40,116 bases of DNA from a virus. The stretch's first letter is position 1. Every line of letters starts with the position of its first letter. Shown piece by piece: positions 4,814 through 10,528 of the stretch. The DNA is taken from the UHGV virus genome UHGV-1361477. One strand, written 5' to 3'. A program made the position numbers and the translations under genes. The notes below the pieces were generated by a model. It had not been told where the DNA came from, did no database searches, and saw only the letters and a list, made by a program, of their open reading frames with translations.

Positions 4814-5699
4814 TGGCAACCTCCAGTTTCGCTTTGCATTCTATGTAAATGGCTTGTACGTTCTGCTGCAATTTCATTCCAGATGTCAGGCGATATGCTT
4901 CTGCAAAATATCGCTTCAAATCATCCATGTTTTCTGCCTGAGCCATTTCATCGCAAAGAAGTTGTGCTTTATCCATTATTTCCTGCTGGCGTTTCCGTTC
5001 ATCTTCGCGGATATCTTCCTCTGATTTGTGCGGCATAACTGGTTCCTGATGCATACCTTCATCTTCGTTAAGCAGGTGAATGGCATTATCCAGTCGCTGG
5101 GCTTTAGGCCAGTATTTGCTGGCGCGTTTAACTATTGTTTTACGCGCCATCTCTTCCCAGAATGTTTTCCACGGTCCATTCTTTGCCTTGCTCGTTGCTT
5201 CCACAGCTTTAATTTCTGCCAGACTCATTTCTTCAGTCAGGTAGTCACCATCTGCTGTTTTAACCGTGCAATAACCTCCAACAATAGAGCCTCGCTCACC
5301 AAATGCGTTGTATTTGTGGGTTGGTGCTGAATCAAGGCCATTTGATTCATAGGTGTCGTTTGAGTACACCAGTTTGCATTGCCCCCACTTAATTGATCCT
5401 GTCGATTGCGCAAGATGAAGTAATCCCATGTAACTGATATCAAGGCACACCATGCCGTCGCGAGGAACCAGATAAGCCAGTTTGCTGGCCGGGTTTAAGG
5501 TGATGCCGATCGCCGCAACATTGATGATGGCGTTCTGTGCGCTGGTTGGATTTGCCAGTGCTGTTTTAGCCAGGTAATCGTTTTTCTGGAAATACTGAAT
5601 TGCAAACTGGCTTTCCTTAGCCCATGTCACCGTCTGTTCAGTCAATGCTCCGCAGAATAACTGCTCTTGCTGTTTAACGAATTCAACGATATTGCTCAT
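4797..5699 (-). CDS. recT: RecT-family single-strand annealing recombinase
   Basis: 300 aa; motif GPWKTFWEEMARKTIVKRASKYWP matches E. coli RecT GPWVTHWEEMAKKTAIRRLFKYLP. Confidence 0.85.
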   Translation of the reverse strand: MSNIVEFVKQQEQLFCGALTEQTVTWAKESQFAIQYFQKNDYLAKTALANPTSAQNAIINVAAIGITLNPASKLAYLVPRDGMVCLDISYMGLLHLAQSTGSIKWGQCKLVYSNDTYESNGLDSAPTHKYNAFGERGSIVGGYCTVKTADGDYLTEEMSLAEIKAVEATSKAKNGPWKTFWEEMARKTIVKRASKYWPKAQRLDNAIHLLNEDEGMHQEPVMPHKSEEDIREDERKRQQEIMDKAQLLCDEMAQAENMDDLKRYFAEAYRLTSGMKLQQNVQAIYIECKAKLEVASEQTV

Positions 5700-6007
5700 G
5701 CAGCTTCTCCATAAATATGTCTGCGTTTGAATATTGCGAAGGCATATTCAGCCTTAACTCTTTCGGTTATTGCATCCCAGAACCATTCATCGGCTTTTTC
5801 CTGATAGTTACAGTCATCATCTTCCAGCCAGTCGATAGCGTCCTTAGTGTGTTCATCTGGTTTATATGAGCGAAGCATTTCGCTTATTGGGTCGCAACGT
5901 TTGCAGAGGCGATCAACTTCACTGTTGATTCGTTCGTAATCTTCATCAGTAAAACTTGCGATTATTTGCGATATTTCACGCTTATCATTCAGAGTCAGAA
6001 TCATCAT
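5696..6007 (-). CDS. hypothetical acidic protein (103 aa)
   Basis: ORF immediately upstream of recT in the operon, overlapping stop/start. Confidence 0.5.
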   Translation of the reverse strand: MMILTLNDKREISQIIASFTDEDYERINSEVDRLCKRCDPISEMLRSYKPDEHTKDAIDWLEDDDCNYQEKADEWFWDAITERVKAEYAFAIFKRRHIYGEAA

Positions 6008-6088
6008 CTTTCTCCTGTTCTTTGTGCTGATTGAGCATTTTGTTCATCTGACGAATGAATTCTTCGTCTGACCATGTATCCGCAATGC

Positions 6089-6253
6089 TCATTGCTTAAC
6101 GACCTTAATCAGTTGAGTTACCTCAATGATGTCCTCGCATAAATCAGAGTACTGAAATGGGCCGCAGTTGTGAGAGTTAGTGCGTCGGGCGAAAGCCATT
6201 CTTCTAAGTTCTTTCAGGGCTTCTTCCAGTTCTTCGTAAGTTGGTTTTTTCAT
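6089..6253 (-). CDS. hypothetical small protein (54 aa), Kil-position
   Basis: Hand-found ORF; ATGA coupling to cIII-like stop (6250-6253) and to a further 35-aa ORF at 5985-6092. Confidence 0.35.
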   Translation of the reverse strand: MKKPTYEELEEALKELRRMAFARRTNSHNCGPFQYSDLCEDIIEVTQLIKVVKQ

Positions 6254-6420
6254 GGCTGTACCTTTTGATTCAGAAACTCAACAAGACGATCCAGCAAGCT
6301 CTTAACGCGAGGTTGTTTAAAGTCTGCTCCGGTTAAAATATTTTTTCGTGAATGCTGCACCGATAAAATCGGGTTGAAAGGGCGAACCGATGCCGCCCCT
6401 GCAATAGCGAACTGTTGCAT
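6250..6420 (-). CDS. cIII: CIII-like protease inhibitor peptide
   Basis: 56 aa from ATG 6420 with GGAG SD; MQQFAIAG N-terminus and SLLDRLVEFLNQ helix resemble lambda CIII (MQYAIAGW...). Confidence 0.6.
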   Translation of the reverse strand: MQQFAIAGAASVRPFNPILSVQHSRKNILTGADFKQPRVKSLLDRLVEFLNQKVQP

Positions 6421-6480
6421 AGGATGCTCCTTCTGTTTGATTGCATAACGAAAACGCCTCGAATGAAGCGTTATTGGTAT

Positions 6481-6510
6481 GCATATAAAAAGGCCCTCAC
6501 ACTGGAGGGC
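6481..6510 (-). terminator. intrinsic terminator (tL-type) on minus strand
   Basis: GCCCTC-cagtgt-GAGGGC hairpin followed by CTTTTTATAT on minus strand. Confidence 0.6.
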
Positions 6511-6616
6511 AAAGAAGATTTCCAATAATCAGAACAAGTCGGCTCCTGTTTAGTTACGAGCGACATTGCTCCGTGTATTCACTCGTTGGAATGAATACAC
6601 AGTGCTTATTCGCAGC

Positions 6617-6943
6617 CTACATAATCATTCCGGTTATTATTACCATTTCAATATCGCTATCTTTCATAATGATTGGAGTTGAGTTATCAACTTTACTTTT
6701 ACTCCATTTTCCTGCATCAGTTTTTACCGCTCCACAATAAGAAAGCCAATCATCATCACAATGTTCTGGATCACTAATTCTGACAAGAACACGTGATAGT
6801 GCTTTTTCGATACTTTCATCACAATTAGCATTTGTGTAATTGCCGTGAGACAATTTCAAATCGTTAACTTCATCTTCATTGGCATCAAAAATATAGATTT
6901 CAGTCGACTCTGGAACATTTTCATAAACCATTAAAACTTTCAT
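6617..6943 (-). CDS. hypothetical acidic protein (108 aa), AT-rich moron-like
   Basis: ORF with GGGG SD; visibly AT-rich codon usage; bracketed by terminators. Confidence 0.6.
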   Translation of the reverse strand: MKVLMVYENVPESTEIYIFDANEDEVNDLKLSHGNYTNANCDESIEKALSRVLVRISDPEHCDDDWLSYCGAVKTDAGKWSKSKVDNSTPIIMKDSDIEMVIITGMIM

Positions 6944-6961
6944 TTTTACCCCATGTTGTTT

Positions 6962-6993
6962 ATGCCAAAAATAAATGCCACCGTCAGGCAGCC
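6962..6993 (-). terminator. candidate intrinsic terminator on minus strand
   Basis: GCUGCC-UGAC-GGUGGC stem (two G.U pairs) followed by AUUUAUUUUUGG; overlaps stop of a 14-codon ORF. Confidence 0.4.
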
Positions 6994-7140
6994 TTGTTGT
7001 AAAGTCGGCGTTTGACTTTCTTGAGCATGGCTCACCTCAATCGTAATAAGCTGGAATTGATTTTCCGCGTTGCTTCTGGCGACCAACACAAGTCACACCC
7101 ATTTCACTGCGTGGCTTGCGGTAGTAAATTAGGTTTGTTC

Positions 7141-7167
7141 AGACAATAAAAAACCCACCGAAGTGGG
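7141..7167 (-). terminator. intrinsic terminator (tL1-like) on minus strand
   Basis: CCCACTTCGGTGGG hairpin directly after TAG stop at 7168-7170, then TTTTTTATT. Confidence 0.7.
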
Positions 7168-7506
7168 CTATGACCATTTTTTATTTGGATTTCGTTGGTG
7201 AGCGTGATTAACAACTCTGTGCATTACATCCTCATATTTTTCATCTTCAATTTTTTCGACATCGCGAGGAAATGGTGTTGCTAATGCTTTGTCAACTTTG
7301 TCCATTGGGTCTTCATTAATCTTATATTCAGGACCATCATCTATAGCATTAAATCCAGGTGTTATACCGTTTTTTAATGCATATGCTATCCTTTTTTCCC
7401 ATCTCGCTATTCTCCTCCTGTCTCGAGATGTAAGACCTCTATCAGATACTTTTCTGTTTTGTCCGCTGTCAGGATTAACATAAATAGTCTTTTTCACCAT
7501 AAGCAT
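7168..7506 (-). CDS. hypothetical basic protein downstream of N
   Basis: ORF; first ATG at 7506, 3 nt after N stop; ORF-track start at 7512 is TTG. Confidence 0.55.
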   Translation of the reverse strand: MLMVKKTIYVNPDSGQNRKVSDRGLTSRDRRRIARWEKRIAYALKNGITPGFNAIDDGPEYKINEDPMDKVDKALATPFPRDVEKIEDEKYEDVMHRVVNHAHQRNPNKKWS

Positions 7507-7508
7507 AC

Positions 7509-7814
7509 TCAATAAGCACCGTACGGTAGTTTACCGTACAATTTTATTTTTTGGACTGCATGTATTTTGTTTCCTAATGGGTTTGAATCTTTGTAATAAA
7601 TACTTCTATTTTTTCGAACGACTTCTTCTTTCTTCTTGCAGCAAAGGATTCCTAGTGATGCTGCTTTGTCTGCTTTGACGCAACCAGAGAGCTTTAGCGC
7701 AATTTTTCGCGCCAGTGCTTCATTACTGCGTCGCTCGGCAATAAGTTCTGCTCTGCGAGCTTTGTAGCGGCTTTTTGCCGTACCTTTGGATTCTTTCCAG
7801 ACAATGGTTACCAT
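7509..7814 (-). CDS. N: antitermination protein N (phage 21 / P22 gp24-like arginine-rich motif)
   Basis: ATG 7814 after AAAGGAG; N-terminal GTAKSRYKARRAELIAERR resembles P22 gp24 GNAKTRRHERRRKLAIER; first gene after pL and nutL. Confidence 0.75.
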   Translation of the reverse strand: MVTIVWKESKGTAKSRYKARRAELIAERRSNEALARKIALKLSGCVKADKAASLGILCCKKKEEVVRKNRSIYYKDSNPLGNKIHAVQKIKLYGKLPYGAY

Positions 7815-7924
7815 GATGGTCTCCTTTAAGTGGCTTTGGCGCATGACGCGTCGAGGTGCTTATCTTCTCGATCGCTGTCTTGCAGCTGCAATTCGCGCCA
7901 TCCCCAAAACCACTCAAGTTCTGG

Positions 7925-7965
7925 TCTCAACGGTTAGGTTGAGAGTCCGTCGATGTTAAAGAGCC
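7925..7965 (-). promoter_or_regulatory. nutL (boxA GCTCTTTAAC + boxB hairpin)
   Basis: On minus strand GCTCTTTAACATCGACGGAC then TCTCAAC-CTAACC-GTTGAGA; same boxA and loop as nutR at 9053-9092. Confidence 0.6.
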
Positions 7966-8010
7966 TGCCAATCTGTTCCGTTTGGCTTCCAGCGTCCTGC
8001 TGATGGCTTA

Positions 8011-8039
8011 AATTTAAGACTTCTTAATTTATTGGTCAA
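8011..8039 (-). promoter_or_regulatory. pL promoter with OL operator
   Basis: Minus strand -35 TTGACC (8039-8034), 17-nt spacer, -10 TAAATT (8016-8011); palindromic AATTTAAGACTTCTTAATT operator overlaps. Confidence 0.55.
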
Positions 8040-8100
8040 GTGCATTTTTGAAGAAAACTTAATTTTATGGGCGTGAATTTAGTTTGTCTTTGATTTTTAA

Positions 8101-8128
8101 CGGGAAATAAAAAAGGGGCGAAAGCCCC
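8101..8128 (-). terminator. intrinsic terminator after c2
   Basis: GGGGC-TTTC-GCCCC hairpin immediately after TAA, followed by TTTTTTATTT on minus strand. Confidence 0.75.
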
Positions 8129-8779
8129 TTAAGGAAGGTTTGCTAGCTTGGCATCAACGACAACGCCAATGATTTTACAGTTCCCATTGATTTCAATCAT
8201 TGGGTATTGTGGATTGAGTGGTTTCAGGAATTTTCTACCGGCATCAATAACTAACTTTTTGAATGTCGCCTCGTTTTCTCCTTCAAGTTTGGCGACTACC
8301 AACTTTCCATTACGTGGTTCGACTTCTGGGTCGACGAGAATAATCATCCCCTCAGGAATACTCAGTCCTGCCGGGGCAGTCATTGAATCGCCTTTAACGT
8401 CGAGCCAAAAAGAGTCTTCAGAACAATCTACCGTTGTGTCGTACCAGTTATCTATTGCACGCCTATGATATGGCTCTACAGCTTCCATCCAACATCCTGC
8501 GCTTACCCAACTAATTAGAGGATACGAACCTCTTGGATCATGCCTGCTGTGATAGGCAATGTTTGAAAGACTATCCTCTCCTTTCAACAGGTAATCAGGG
8601 GAGCACTGCAAAGCCTTGGCTAAGGCCAATAGGTTTTCGCCATTGGGCTCAGTTTCAGATCGCTCCCATTGGGAAATAGCAACATTAGACACGCCAACCA
8701 TCTTGCCAAGGGCAGCCTGCCTAATCTTGAGTTCTTTTCTGCGAGCGCGAATACGCTCACCCATCAGTTGTGTATTCAT
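8129..8779 (-). CDS. c2: C2 (CI-type) repressor, LexA-like fold
   Basis: 216 aa; near-identical by recall to P22 C2 (MNTQLMGERIRARRK...GVVVDAKLANLP). Confidence 0.95.
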   Translation of the reverse strand: MNTQLMGERIRARRKELKIRQAALGKMVGVSNVAISQWERSETEPNGENLLALAKALQCSPDYLLKGEDSLSNIAYHSRHDPRGSYPLISWVSAGCWMEAVEPYHRRAIDNWYDTTVDCSEDSFWLDVKGDSMTAPAGLSIPEGMIILVDPEVEPRNGKLVVAKLEGENEATFKKLVIDAGRKFLKPLNPQYPMIEINGNCKIIGVVVDAKLANLP

Positions 8780-8781
8780 AG

Positions 8782-8846
8782 TTAAGACATCTTAAATAAA
8801 CTTGACTTAAGATTCCTTTGGTGGATAATTTAAGTGTTCTTTAATT
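8782..8846. promoter_or_regulatory. OR operators with divergent pRM/pR
   Basis: Three TTAAG-type sites (8782-8797, 8805-8822, 8827-8846; last matches P22 OR1 ATTTAAGTGTTCTTTAAT); pR -35 TTGACT 8802-8807, -10 GATAAT 8824-8829. Confidence 0.7.
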
Positions 8847-8859
8847 TCGGAGCGAGTCT

Positions 8860-9045
8860 ATGTACAAAAAAGATGTTATTGACCACTTCGGAACCCAGCG
8901 TGCTGTTGCTAAAGCACTAGGCATTAGCGATGCAGCAGTCTCTCAGTGGAAAGAAGTTATCCCAGAGAAAGACGCCTATCGATTGGAAATCGTTACAGCT
9001 GGCGCCCTGAAGTATCAAGAAAGTGCTTACCGCCAAGCGGCATAA
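8860..9045 (+). CDS. cro: Cro repressor
   Basis: 61 aa MYKKDVIDHFGTQRAVAKALGISDAAVSQWKE... matches P22 Cro by recall; GGAG SD. Confidence 0.95.
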   Translation: MYKKDVIDHFGTQRAVAKALGISDAAVSQWKEVIPEKDAYRLEIVTAGALKYQESAYRQAA

Positions 9046-9052
9046 GCAAATT

Positions 9053-9092
9053 GCTCTTTAACAGTTCTGGCCTTTCACCTCTAACCGGGTGA
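9053..9092 (+). promoter_or_regulatory. nutR (boxA + boxB)
   Basis: GCTCTTTAACA boxA then TCACC-TCTAACCG-GGTGA hairpin. Confidence 0.6.
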
Positions 9093-9160
9093 GCAAACAT
9101 CAGCGGCAAATCCATTGGGTGTGCCGCTATAACTCAATATCAATATAGGAAAATTAACAA

Positions 9161-9457
9161 ATGGCACAAGCAAGCTACAGCAAGCCAACACAGCGAGAAA
9201 TTGATCGCGCTGAAACTGATTTACTCATCAACCTGTCAACGCTTACCCATCGCGGTCTGGCAAAGATGATTGGCTGTCATGAATCGAAGATAAGCAGAAC
9301 GGACTGGAGATTTATTGCTTCGGTCTTGTGTGCTTTCGGAATGGCATCAGACATCAGTCCGATTAGCAGGGCTTTTAAGTATGCGCTTGATGAAATCACA
9401 AAGAAAAAATCCCCGGCCGCCACCGAGGATTTTAAGCAAATTGATATGCAATTCTGA
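9161..9457 (+). CDS. cII: CII-like transcriptional activator
   Basis: 98 aa; C-terminus [18 protein letters not shown] vs lambda CII NKKRPAATERSEQIQMEF; HTH in middle. Confidence 0.8.
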
Positions 9458-9489: not shown

Positions 9490-9636
9490 ATGACAAAACA
9501 ACTCAGTCCTTACCAGGACAAAATTCACAAACACATACTACGTGATCGCTTCCTGTCCAGCTTCAAGCAGCCTGGTCGATTCCGGGCTGAGTTGGAAAAA
9601 GTGAAGCTGATGCAGAAGGAGAAAGGTCATGAGTAA
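9490..9636 (+). CDS. hypothetical small basic protein (48 aa)
   Basis: Hand-found; AGGAG SD; overlaps start of O-like gene. Confidence 0.4.
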
Positions 9637-10528
9637 CATATCTAATCTAGCCGAAGCCAGAGAGGCCAGAAGGCTCCAACAACCGCATCAAAGCAGCGGT
9701 AAGGGGTATGCCTTGCTGCACCGTAAAATTATGGATGTGCCGTTTTACAAGGACGCAGAAGCAGCGCATCTGTGGGTTCACTTAATCCTCAAAGCAAAGC
9801 ATACGCCTGAGTATGTAATGACTGACGCAGGAGAAATTCTGGTAGGCAGAGGGAAGCTACTTGGTGGTAGAAACTCTCTGGCGTTTGAAACAGGACTCAA
9901 ACCAGATCGCGTTCAGTACCTGCTTAGAAAGTTCAAAAAACTCGGCATGATTGACTGGGTTTCACACGGTAAATTCTCAGTTTTCTCGGTAGAGAAATAT
10001 GACGATTATCAGTCAAATTTTGTACCAGCAGATTACCAGCAAATTACCACCTCAAAGCCAGCAATACCAATGCCTGCAAGCAATACTGTACCAGCAGATT
10101 ACCAGCAAATTACCACAGATAAAGAATATAATAATATTATCTCTAATACTGACGTATTAGAGAGTACCGCAGCAGACAAAAAGTCTGACAAGAAAAAACC
10201 TTCCGTTAGCTGTCAGGATGTTGTCGATGCTTACCACGAAATCCTTCCTGAAGCGCCAAGAATCCGCGCACTGAATGACAAGCGTAAAAACCAGATCCGA
10301 ACGTTCTGGCGCAAAGCCGGAGTGATAACCCGACAGCTTGACGGGCATGGTTTCACGATGCAGGACTGGAGAAATTATTTGAGCTACGTTGGCGAAAATT
10401 GCCGATGGATGTTCGAAGAGCGCCCAAACCATCAACGCGGAACCGTCTGGCACAAAAAGGGATTTGATTTCCTGCTTAACGATAATACCTACCTGAAAGT
10501 TCGTGAGGGTGAACACGATGACCGATAA
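9629..10528 (+). CDS. replication initiator (O-like replisome organiser)
   Basis: 299 aa; position between cII and helicase; contains internal iterons; N-terminal HTH-like region. Confidence 0.75.
10021..10150. repeat. putative ori: two perfect 30-bp iterons plus AT-rich tract inside O-like gene
   Basis: TGTACCAGCAGATTACCAGCAAATTACCAC at 10021-10050 and 10087-10116, followed by AT-rich 10117-10150; encodes [10 protein letters not shown] twice. Confidence 0.55.

What the first reader, a model, noticed from the sequence alone, without database searches (positions are those of the whole stretch)
6478..7512. Acidic AT-rich moron and an N-coupled gene, each bracketed by intrinsic terminators in the pL operon
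Immediately after N, a 112-aa basic protein (7168-7506) starts 3 nt after the N stop and ends at a strong terminator (7141-7167). A 108-aa highly acidic, AT-rich ORF (6617-6943) follows, preceded by a 14-codon ORF with strong SD (6984-7028) whose stop lies in a hairpin plus T-run (6962-6993), and followed by another terminator (6481-6510). This is the genomic position of ral/sieB-type accessory genes in lambda. Acidic small early proteins are frequent anti-restriction or anti-defence factors, so these would be expressed only after N antitermination.
Basis: partly seen in the sequence, partly recalled or inferred. Interest (0 to 1): 0.55.

Follow-up and report, generated by a model that had tools for sequence, protein, structure and literature searches.

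The report
Nun gene plus orphan acidic cargo gene
This stretch of a lambda-like prophage holds the well-known Nun gene, which blocks rival lambda phages, a recombination scar, and a small acidic phage protein of unknown function and unmatched predicted fold that is a reasonable but untested anti-defence candidate.

Summary
The sequence observations hold. All the ORFs and four terminator-like hairpins are at the stated places. The 108-aa gene is acidic (pI 4.36, net -11) and AT-rich: 33% GC against 46.6%, in the lowest 0.1% of the window.

- **The 112-aa protein is HK022 Nun.** It matches at 111 of 112 residues. The promoter annotated for nun in HK022/O276 lies inside the 3' end of N and is conserved here except for one -10 base. 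Nun is therefore probably made in the lysogen, not only after N antitermination.
- **N is phage-21-type.** Its arginine-rich motif and nutL match phage 21, which explains how N and Nun can coexist.
- **The 14-codon ORF is a recombination scar.** It joins the start of an mEpX1_038-like gene to the conserved "NKAA-stop-hairpin" end shared by ral.
- **The 108-aa gene is a clean insertion of about 347 bp.** It has no promoter or terminator of its own and sits between the ral-end hairpin and lambda tL2a.
- **It belongs to PHROG 4658, function unknown.** The family occurs in lambdoid pL operons and in stretches of small genes of T4-like and other virulent phages. It is under purifying selection (dN/dS 0.07). 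The fold is predicted at pLDDT 97 and matches no PDB structure.

An early host- or defence-modulating role is plausible but unproven.

The parts
7925..7965 (-). nutL of phage 21 type: boxA GGCTCTTTAACA (7954-7965) and boxB hairpin TCTCAACCTAACCGTTGAGA (7925-7944). Context, outside the finding.
   Evidence: The sequence from CTCTTTAACA (the last 10 nt of boxA) through boxB and into N is identical to lambda imm21 (A4). The box names come from my own knowledge of phage 21 nut sites.
7509..7814 (-). Antiterminator N, 101 aa. The first ~70 codons are phage 21 N. The last third has diverged and travels with nun.
   Evidence: phrog_271, E 1e-29. The arginine-rich motif matches PDB 1NYB, the phage 21 N peptide. 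DNA alignment with lambda imm21. The 3' third is shared with the region upstream of nun in HK022/O276/HK75.
7533..7561 (-). Homologue of the HK022 nun promoter: -35 ATGCAG at 7556-7561 and -10 TACGGT at 7533-7538. It lies inside the 3' end of N. There is one A->G change, at 7535, in the -10 hexamer.
   Evidence: The hexamers are annotated in O276 (MH547045) at L011:1266-1271 and 1289-1294. Sequences compared.
7168..7506 (-). nun, the HK022-type transcription arrest/termination factor that excludes lambda. Alternative in-frame starts at 7500 and 7497.
   Evidence: phrog_5632, E 2.5e-70. 111/112 identical to the O276/HK022 Nun. PDB 6ALG_N E 5.7e-72 and 1HJI_B.
7143..7169 (-). Intrinsic terminator directly after nun: stem AGCCCAC/GTGGGTT, UUCG loop, T6.
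   Evidence: -10.3 kcal/mol. The HK022 counterpart differs but keeps the stem, including one A-U to G-C compensatory pair (A2).
7037..7137 (-). Orphan remnant of the 3' third of a phage-21-type N gene (YYRKPRSEMGVTCVGRQ...), with no start codon.
   Evidence: Alignment with the end of the lambda imm21 N gene (A1; N21 translation).
6984..7028 (-). 14-codon ORF, best read as a recombination scar. Its first ~10 codons and SD come from an mEpX1_038-like gene. Its last 5 codons and stop come from the conserved ...NKAA-stop gene end shared by ral and an 83-aa gene.
   Evidence: A1, the Ral translation and A5. The identical scar occurs in L013 and L020.
6962..6992 (-). Weak hairpin plus interrupted T-run, the conserved linker found after ral in lambda. 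It always precedes the 108-aa gene.
   Evidence: -8.2 kcal/mol, z -0.55. A5: after the 149-aa gene the stem sequence is different but pairing is kept.
6610..6956 (-). Cargo insertion of about 347 bp relative to lambda imm21 and HK75. It holds only a ribosome-binding site and the 108-aa ORF (6617-6943).
   Evidence: A6. GC 33%. phrog_4658, E 2.4e-38. dN/dS 0.07. AlphaFold2 pLDDT 96.9.
6483..6510 (-). Lambda tL2a terminator.
   Evidence: Annotated as tL2a in O276 and as a terminator in mEpX1 and HK75. Identical stem in A6..
6444..6472 (-). Second terminator-like hairpin, just upstream of the cIII-like gene.
   Evidence: -9.9 kcal/mol, z -2.8. HK75 annotates a second terminator at the homologous place.
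6250..6420 (-). cIII-like gene (56 aa), the next gene of the operon. Context.
   Evidence: phrog_550, E 5.9e-19.

Best explanation
The interval is the promoter-proximal accessory part of a lambdoid leftward early operon. It was assembled from exchangeable modules.

**Order on the - strand:** pL, phage-21-type nutL, N, nun, nun terminator, a dead N 3' fragment, a 14-codon junction scar, a weak hairpin, the 108-aa cargo gene, tL2a, a second hairpin, cIII, then the recombination genes.

**Shown here:**
- The identity of each part.
- The insertion boundaries of the cargo gene.
- That the 108-aa gene encodes a real, selected protein.

**Inferred for nun:**
- In the lysogen, nun is transcribed from its own weak promoter inside the end of N and stops at its own terminator.
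- Nun then arrests RNA polymerase on superinfecting lambda-nut phages.
- The resident phage escapes because its own N/nut pair is of phage 21 specificity.

**Inferred for the 108-aa gene:**
- It has no promoter of its own. It is reached only by pL transcripts that N has made terminator-resistant, so it is an early lytic product.
- The family is small, conserved in its acidity and restricted to phages.
- The same family sits next to ral, P22 gp17-like and anti-RecBCD genes in temperate phages, and among runs of small genes in T4-like and other virulent phages.
- Its most likely role is therefore a stoichiometric binder or inhibitor of a host or host-defence component during early infection.

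**My estimates:** about 0.9 for the anatomy, about 0.7 for the expression logic, and about 0.35 for the counter-defence role specifically.
For: **Module identities and expression.**
- Nun, N, cIII and PHROG assignments.
- Nun promoter annotation and its conservation here.
- Nun is present in HK022 lysogens, and nun mutants grow lytically and lysogenise normally (PMC5386594; PMC4124055).
- Nun excludes lambda and lambda imm434, which share the same NUT sites (PMC4124055). The window's nutL is identical to phage 21.
- The scar and the N remnant.

**The cargo gene.**
- Clean insertion relative to lambda imm21 and HK75.
- No promoter-like site on the - strand between 6950 and 7150.
- The identical 108-aa protein was seen in 10 different lambdoid/P22-like prophage contexts. 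It always lies between N and cIII, directly after ral, sieB plus the scar, nun plus the scar, or a 149-aa ORF, and it is often followed by a P22 gp17-like gene.
- An 82%-identical orthologue sits in the same slot, after ral and a 67-aa gene.
- Homologues occur in Pseudotevenvirus (next to ndd), Jedunavirus and Stephanstirmvirinae. One metagenomic T4-like contig has it between the topoisomerase and holin genes.
- dN/dS is 0.07.
- Median net charge is -11 across 38 representatives.
- The model is confident.
Against: - No function has been shown for any member of the 108-aa family. No Pfam, NCBIfam or PADLOC match was found, and no name was given by any source.
- Gene neighbourhood in hypervariable slots is weak evidence. 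Such slots also carry host-killing, exclusion and regulatory genes.
- The promoter scan is a simple consensus match and could miss a weak or activator-dependent promoter.
- The window's nun promoter has a changed -10 base (TACAGT to TACGGT), so lysogenic expression of nun in this particular prophage is not certain.
- I could not read King et al. 2000 itself.
Confidence: 0.6

Rival explanations
1. The 108-aa protein is a DNA-mimic anti-restriction protein of the Ocr/ArdA/Arn kind.
For: - It is acidic (pI 4.36, net -11), and this is conserved across the family.
- It lies next to ral in many prophages.
- One metagenomic T4-like contig carries a homologue between the topoisomerase and holin genes. 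By my recollection of the T4 map, that region holds arn.
Against: - The predicted fold is a compact alpha/beta domain.
- The most conserved residues are P11, E12, H33, Y36, N38, W80, T104 and G105. Only 8 positions are at least 60% acidic.
- As I recall, Ocr carries roughly two to three times this net charge at a similar length.
- It co-occurs with ral rather than replacing it.
Confidence: 0.12
2. The 108-aa protein binds or degrades a small immune signalling molecule, or carries out another pocket-based activity, rather than acting through its charge.
For: - The nearly invariant residues are a polar/aromatic set: E12, H33, Y36, N38, W80 and T104.
- It is small and single-domain.
- It is present in both temperate and virulent phages.
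Against: - No fold similarity to any solved sponge or phosphodiesterase.
A pocket is therefore only conjecture.
Confidence: 0.13
3. The 108-aa gene is a true moron. It is expressed from the repressed prophage and benefits the lysogen, for example by superinfection exclusion, as Nun or SieB do.
For: - It is atypically AT-rich extra DNA.
- It neighbours the exclusion genes nun and sieB.
Against: - No promoter-like site lies upstream.
- The insert carries no promoter or terminator of its own.
- Transcripts from the nun promoter should stop at the nun terminator.
- The family is common in strictly virulent phages, which have no lysogens to protect.
Confidence: 0.08
4. The 108-aa protein redirects ordinary host physiology early in infection, for example transcription, nucleoid, replication or proteolysis. 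It would act as Kil, cIII, Ndd or AsiA do, and have nothing to do with defence systems.
For: - It sits in the same operon as cIII and kil.
- It sits beside ndd in Pseudotevenvirus.
- It is small and acidic.
Against: - Nothing specific argues against this.
- Its patchy, cargo-like distribution is more typical of accessory than of core takeover genes: only 59 clusters with E <= 0.001 among 1.84 billion representative proteins, and it is present in only some lambdoid prophages.
Confidence: 0.25
5. The 14-codon ORF is a functional leader peptide. Its translation would control the hairpin at 6977-6992, as in attenuation.
For: - It has a strong SD.
- Its stop codon lies inside the hairpin.
- The identical ORF is present in two other prophage contexts.
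Against: - Both halves are accounted for as ends of other genes. In mEpX1 the same start continues into a 45-aa ORF. The same NKAA-stop-hairpin ends ral and an 83-aa gene.
- The hairpin is weak.
- No alternative antiterminator pairing was seen.
Confidence: 0.04

Closest known systems
Nun of coliphage HK022 (also in HK75, mEpX1, mEp235, O276)
   Same: - 111/112 amino-acid identity.
- The RNA-binding arginine-rich motif and the C-terminal arrest segment (...HRVVNHAHQRNPNKKWS) are identical.
- About 120 nt upstream, including the annotated promoter, are shared.
- A hairpin terminator follows directly.
   Different: - Here, as in mEpX1 and mEp235, a complete N gene and a nut site precede nun. HK022 keeps only the dead 3' end of N and uses put RNA for antitermination (annotation).
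- One base differs in the -10 hexamer.
- The terminator sequence differs but is still paired.
Lambda ral-to-ea10 region with tL2a, and the hypervariable N-to-cIII slot of lambdoid phages
   Same: - Same backbone: the ral-end hairpin, the ~100-nt conserved spacer and tL2a are nearly identical to lambda imm21.
- The slot holds ral, sieB, gp17-like and other accessory genes in relatives.
   Different: - ral itself is absent here; only its last codons survive in the scar.
- An extra 108-aa gene is inserted that neither lambda nor HK022 has.
PHROG 4658, an uncharacterised phage protein family
   Same: Full-length match, E 2.4e-38. Homologues have the same length and the same conserved residues.
   Different: - The E. 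coli prophage version has no close (>60% identity) relative in the phage genome collection searched.
- Listed homologues there are in Jedunavirus, Pseudotevenvirus, Stephanstirmvirinae and other large virulent phages.
Small acidic phage inhibitors: Ocr, ArdA, Arn, Ugi
   Same: Small size, negative charge, early expression context and position beside an anti-restriction gene.
   Different: - No sequence or fold similarity.
- The conserved positions are mostly not acidic.
- No activity is known.
Morons as defined in HK97/HK022 comparisons (Juhala et al. 2000)
   Same: Extra gene present in one genome and cleanly absent from relatives, with atypical base composition.
   Different: It lacks its own promoter and terminator. 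It relies on operon transcription and on backbone terminators.

Membership tests
HK022 Nun transcription arrest factor | Full-length sequence identity with HK022 Nun | tested here: met
   111/112 identical to O276/HK022 Nun. PDB 6ALG_N E 5.7e-72. phrog_5632 E 2.5e-70.
HK022 Nun transcription arrest factor | Arginine-rich motif that binds lambda boxB, and C-terminal residues needed for arrest (H98, R102, K106, K107, W108 in 109-aa numbering) | tested here: met
   Both segments are identical in the pairwise alignment. Residue roles are taken from PMC5386594. The peptide of PDB 1HJI_B matches residues 22-47.
HK022 Nun transcription arrest factor | Own constitutive promoter just upstream, active in the repressed prophage | tested here: inconclusive
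   The annotated -35 is identical. The -10 is TACGGT instead of TACAGT. Promoter activity was not measured.
HK022 Nun transcription arrest factor | Lysogen excludes lambda-nut phages but not phages with other nut sites | not testable with these tools
   This needs plating of lambda and lambda imm21 on the lysogen.
Phage 21-type N antiterminator with cognate nutL | Arginine-rich motif GTAKSRYKARRAELIAERR, with boxA and boxB identical to phage 21 | tested here: met
   PDB 1NYB match. DNA from within boxA through boxB to about codon 70 of N is identical to lambda imm21.
Moron (self-contained extra transcription unit) | Gene present here and cleanly absent at the same site in relatives | tested here: met
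   Insertion of about 347 bp relative to lambda imm21 and HK75 (A6).
Moron (self-contained extra transcription unit) | Own promoter and own terminator within the inserted DNA | tested here: not met
   No promoter-like site on the - strand between 6950 and 7150. Both flanking hairpins belong to the backbone, which is present without the insert.
Moron (self-contained extra transcription unit) | Base composition different from the surrounding genome | tested here: met
   33.0% GC against 46.6%, in the lowest 0.1% of 327-nt windows.
DNA-mimic anti-restriction proteins (Ocr, ArdA, Arn) | Fold or sequence similarity to a known mimic | tested here: not met
DNA-mimic anti-restriction proteins (Ocr, ArdA, Arn) | Conserved surface array of acidic residues that imitates the phosphate backbone | tested here: inconclusive
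   Family-wide acidity: median net charge -11. However, only 8 positions are at least 60% D/E, and the top-conserved residues are mostly non-acidic. The surface geometry could not be examined.
DNA-mimic anti-restriction proteins (Ocr, ArdA, Arn) | Inhibits restriction in vivo or in vitro | not testable with these tools
   Needs an experiment.
Ral (lambda restriction alleviation) | Sequence match to Pfam PF11058 / lambda Ral | tested here: not met
   No Pfam hit for the 108-aa protein. In other prophages it lies next to a separate Ral gene. Only the last 5 codons of a ral-type gene end survive here.
PHROG 4658 | Full-length profile match | tested here: met
   E 2.4e-38, residues 1-108 on profile positions 2-109 of 109.
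Lambda terminator tL2a | Sequence identity with the annotated tL2a and the same position upstream of the ea10/cIII genes | tested here: met
   Annotated as tL2a in O276 under the match. Identical stem in lambda imm21 and HK75.

The most novel reading that the evidence does not exclude
The 108-aa acidic protein (PHROG 4658) founds a new-fold family of phage counter-defence proteins. It would inhibit a bacterial immune system or bind its signal. The family is shared by horizontal transfer between lambdoid prophages and T4-like, Jedunavirus and phi92-like virulent phages of enterobacteria.
Probability: 0.3. Interest if true: 0.65.

Novelty: new member of a known kind. Interest (0 to 1): 0.35.

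Why it matters
**What is already understood.** Most of the interval is explained by known biology. Nun exclusion is a textbook case, and the terminators and the scar are ordinary lambdoid mosaic joints.

**The part worth following.** The 108-aa gene is common: the identical protein is indexed in 991 blocks of the assembly collection. It is strongly selected and predicted with very high confidence. Yet it matches no solved structure and no annotated family. It also appears both in the accessory slot of temperate phages and among runs of small genes in virulent phages. That profile fits many phage inhibitors of bacterial immunity found in recent years, so it is a cheap, well-defined candidate for anti-defence or host-takeover screens.

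**A side result.** Nun travels as a cassette together with the last third of an N gene. This gives a simple recombination route by which an exclusion gene can move between N-dependent phages. It also suggests how HK022 came to have nun without N.

Tried and rejected
**Searches on the 108-aa protein that found nothing useful.**
- Pfam, NCBIfam and PADLOC scans gave nothing. There was only a sub-threshold ferredoxin hit, E 0.025, far below its cut-off.
- A profile search of PDB sequences gave a best E of 0.46.
- BFVD returned only uncharacterised members of the same family.
- The AlphaFold database library was not available.
- A word-indexed homology search with the family profile returned no named or Pfam-annotated relatives.

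**Other searches that led nowhere.**
- Rfam on 5800-9300 gave no credible RNA family.
- Literature searches by accession, PHROG id and peptide strings found nothing.
- King et al. 2000 on the nun promoter could not be read. The promoter position therefore rests on the O276 GenBank annotation.

**Ideas rejected.**
- *The 14-codon ORF as a leader peptide.* Both of its halves are ends of other genes.
- *The 47-aa ORF at 6946-7089 as a real gene.* It lies in a different frame across the scar, and no family hit was found.
- *The 210-aa and 163-aa 'members' of the 108-aa protein's 90% cluster as fusions.* Their sequences are unrelated, so this is a clustering artefact.
- *The 122-aa version as a longer protein.* It is only an upstream-extended annotation of the same ORF.
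Full report
**1. What the window is.**
- The region around the finding is the immunity and early-left region of a lambdoid prophage.
- A LexA-like cI repressor lies at 8129-8779 (-), cro at 8860-9045 (+) and cII at 9161-9457 (+).
- On the - strand, the leftward operon runs from a pL-like promoter (8011-8039) through N, the finding, a cIII-like gene (6250-6420) and a RecT recombination module.
- The closest sequenced phages over this stretch are mEpX1, mEp235, PDP110P1 and Kapi1. None covers more than 74% of 6400-7900, because the middle differs.

**2. Check of the observation.**
- Terminator-like sites are enriched in 5500-9200: 11 found against 3.9 +/- 2.0 in shuffles.
- Four of them lie on the - strand inside or at the edge of the finding: 7152-7169, 6977-6992, 6493-6510 and 6453-6472.
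- Their stabilities are -10.3, -8.2, -10.7 and -9.9 kcal/mol. The second is no better than shuffled sequence.
- The 108-aa gene has 33.0% GC against 46.6% for the window, in the lowest 0.1% of equal-sized windows. Its product has pI 4.36 and net charge -11.
That is excluded.

**3. The 'N-coupled basic protein' is Nun.**
- The 112-aa ORF matches the PHROG 'Nun-like transcription termination factor' at E 2.5e-70.
- It is 111/112 identical to the Nun of O276/HK022; the only change is V48I.
- It matches PDB 6ALG chain N (Nun in the E. coli elongation complex) at E 5.7e-72, and the Nun peptide of 1HJI.
- The arginine-rich RNA-binding motif is unchanged. So is the C-terminal segment that enters the polymerase cleft, whose key residues H98, R102, K106, K107 and W108 are described in PMC5386594.
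- The solved chain aligns to residues 4-112 of the ORF. The published 109-aa numbering therefore corresponds to the GTG at 7497.
- Overall pI is 9.5, but only the N-terminal half is basic.

**4. How nun is probably expressed.**
- The GenBank record of O276 carries the HK022 immunity region. It annotates a nun promoter 27-55 nt upstream of the nun ATG.
[quoted passage not shown] 2000, seen). I could not read the paper itself.
- The ~120 nt upstream of nun are essentially identical in the window, HK022/O276, HK75 and mEpX1.
- In the window this stretch is the 3' end of the N reading frame.
- The annotated -35 (ATGCAG, 7556-7561) is identical. The -10 is TACGGT (7533-7538) instead of TACAGT.
- Nun is reported at about 100 nM in HK022 lysogens (PMC5386594).
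- Its only known role is to exclude lambda and lambda imm434, which share the same NUT sites. nun mutants grow lytically and lysogenise normally (PMC4124055).
- Nun is therefore most likely a prophage-expressed exclusion factor here too. Its transcript would be confined by the terminator at 7152-7169.
- That terminator differs in sequence from HK022's but keeps the stem, including one A-U to G-C compensatory pair.
- 'Expressed only after N antitermination' is therefore probably wrong for this gene. The altered -10 base leaves some doubt for this particular allele.

**5. N, and why N and Nun can coexist.**
- From within boxA through boxB to about codon 70 of N, the window is identical to phage 21 as carried by lambda imm21.
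- The arginine-rich motif matches the phage 21 N peptide of PDB 1NYB.
- By that identity the real N start is ATG 7814, giving 101 aa.
- Nun is targeted through lambda boxB. A phage with 21-type N and nut should not be hit by its own Nun. This is inference from the stated specificity.
- The last third of N diverges from N21 exactly where the similarity to the HK022 nun-upstream region begins.
- Directly after the nun terminator comes a second, start-less copy of an N21-type last third, at about 7037-7137.
- The simplest reading is that nun moves as a cassette: the last third of an N gene, then nun, then its terminator. The cassette recombined into an N21 gene and left the displaced N21 end behind.
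- On this reading, HK022 keeps the same cassette without the front of N.

**6. The 14-codon ORF and its hairpin.**
- In mEpX1 the same SD and the same first ~10 codons (ATGCTCAAGAAAGTCAAACGCCGACTTTACAA) continue into an annotated 45-aa ORF, mEpX1_038, which its annotators call similar to Sf6 gene 36.
- In the window the sequence switches at TTTACAA to CAAGGCTGCCTGA followed by the hairpin.
- That ending is also the end of lambda ral (...KQNNKAA-stop) and of an 83-aa gene in strain AST198.
- The short ORF is thus a junction of two gene ends at a microhomology. The identical scar is present in two other prophage contexts, L013 and L020.
- The hairpin plus TTTATTTTTGGCATAAACAAYA is a conserved inter-module linker.
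- Behind a different upstream gene (149 aa) the stem has another sequence but still pairs. The structure may therefore matter, although it is weak.
- I give the leader-peptide idea a low probability.

**7. The 108-aa gene as an insertion.**
- I aligned the window with lambda imm21 (from the ral end to ea10) and with HK75 (from the nun end to cIII).
- The window has about 347 extra bases, 6610-6956, between ...CATAAAYAACA and GAATAA(A/G)CACTG.
- The ~100 nt that follow, and the terminator at 6493-6510, are nearly identical in all three.
- That terminator is annotated as tL2a in O276 and as a terminator in mEpX1 and HK75.
- The insert contains only a ribosome-binding site (GGGG, 5 nt before the ATG) and the ORF.
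- No promoter-like site was found on the - strand between the nun terminator and the ORF.
- It is therefore extra, compositionally foreign DNA, but not a self-contained moron. It depends on operon transcription, which in lambda-type phages means N-modified polymerase reading through the intervening terminators. That last step is inference from the lambda paradigm.

**8. The 108-aa protein is real, and what it resembles.**
- It matches PHROG 4658 (unknown function) over its full length, E 2.4e-38.
- The identical protein is indexed in 991 blocks of the public assembly collection.
- In the ten contexts read, it always lies between N and cIII of different lambdoid or P22-like prophages. It comes directly after ral (three contexts), a 149-aa ORF (five), nun plus the scar (one) or sieB plus the scar (one). 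It is often followed by a P22 gp17-like gene.
- An 82%-identical orthologue occupies the same slot, and dN/dS between the two is 0.07.
- Distant homologues (about 29-35% identity, full length) are in Klebsiella Jedunavirus, in Pseudotevenvirus (three genes downstream of ndd), and in Stephanstirmvirinae. Others lie in metagenomic phage contigs among runs of small genes, one of them between the T4-type topoisomerase and holin genes.
- An exhaustive HMMER search of 1.84 billion representatives found only 59 clusters at E <= 0.001, nearly all about 100-115 aa. No member has a name or a Pfam domain.
- Acidity is a family trait: median net charge -11, and 34 of 38 full-length representatives have pI below 5.1.
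- The most conserved positions are P11, E12, H33, Y36, N38, W80, T104 and G105.
- AlphaFold2 with a 29-sequence alignment gives pLDDT 96.9 and pTM 0.88. The model has a beta-hairpin, three helices and a C-terminal strand.

**9. Most likely mechanism, and rivals.**
- The anatomy and expression logic are set out in points 3-7.
- For the 108-aa protein I favour an early lytic role: a small binding protein that neutralises a host factor or host-defence factor.
- The grounds are phage-restricted distribution, conserved charge, purifying selection, cargo-like insertion, and its neighbours. These are ral, a gp17-like gene and anti-RecBCD genes in temperate phages, and early accessory regions in virulent phages.
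- This is inference from context. I put about 0.35 on counter-defence specifically and about 0.25 on non-defence host takeover.
- The DNA-mimic version is weakened by the lack of any fold match and by the nature of the conserved residues.
- A lysogen-protecting role is weakened by the lack of a promoter and by the family's abundance in virulent phages.

**10. Novelty and verdict.**
- Nun, N21/nut21, tL2a and mosaic junction scars are all known. The N-plus-nun arrangement is already annotated in mEpX1 and mEp235.
- What remains open is an uncharacterised but widespread phage protein family with a confident orphan fold.
- The finding as written is mostly ordinary. It contains one worthwhile candidate for experimental screening.

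Noticed in passing
window 7521-7539 (- strand): A perfect hairpin (UUGUACGGUAAACUACCGUACGG, -12.9 kcal/mol, z -3.75) lies in the last codons of N and overlaps the annotated -10 of the nun promoter. The window's single A->G change at 7535 weakens the -10 match and also completes the stem. HK022, HK75 and mEpX1 have a mismatch at that position.
   Followed up: partly
window 7037-7137 and 7509-7630 (- strand): Two copies of the last third of an N gene flank nun: a diverged one that completes the N reading frame, and an orphan phage-21-type one after the nun terminator. This suggests that nun moves as a cassette by recombination within N. It also suggests that the region upstream of nun in HK022 is a dead N remnant.
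   Followed up: partly
E. coli prophage loci L012-L021 and the hits: The slot between N/nun and cIII is hypervariable. Besides the 108-aa gene it carries ral, sieB, a P22 gp17-like gene, unannotated 149-aa and 83-aa ORFs, an Nmad5-family nucleotide-modification protein, and DUF2528 and XkdD/Y8K6-family proteins. No complete RefSeq E. coli genome has the window's exact mosaic at more than 93% coverage.
   Followed up: partly
protein collection, cluster of the 108-aa protein (P0063, P0064, P0071): The 90% cluster that holds the 108-aa protein has a 210-aa cysteine-rich representative whose sequence is unrelated. This looks like a clustering artefact, not a fusion.
   Followed up: yes
window 9629-10528 (+ strand): The replication-initiator-like gene contains a direct repeat that encodes [10 protein letters not shown] twice. 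These may be origin iterons inside the gene, as in lambda O.
   Followed up: no
window 7300-7600: nun and the diverged end of N are also AT-rich (35-38% GC against 46.6%). This fits a foreign origin for the whole nun cassette.
   Followed up: no
L022 4001-4327: The 82%-identical orthologue of the 108-aa gene, from a sequencing-run assembly (Logan ERR4405589), has 43% GC against 33% for the window's copy. Named members of its 90% cluster are from Enterobacter, Salmonella and E. coli. It also lacks the T-rich linker upstream. The extreme AT-richness is therefore a feature of the E. coli lineage of the gene, not of the family.
   Followed up: partly
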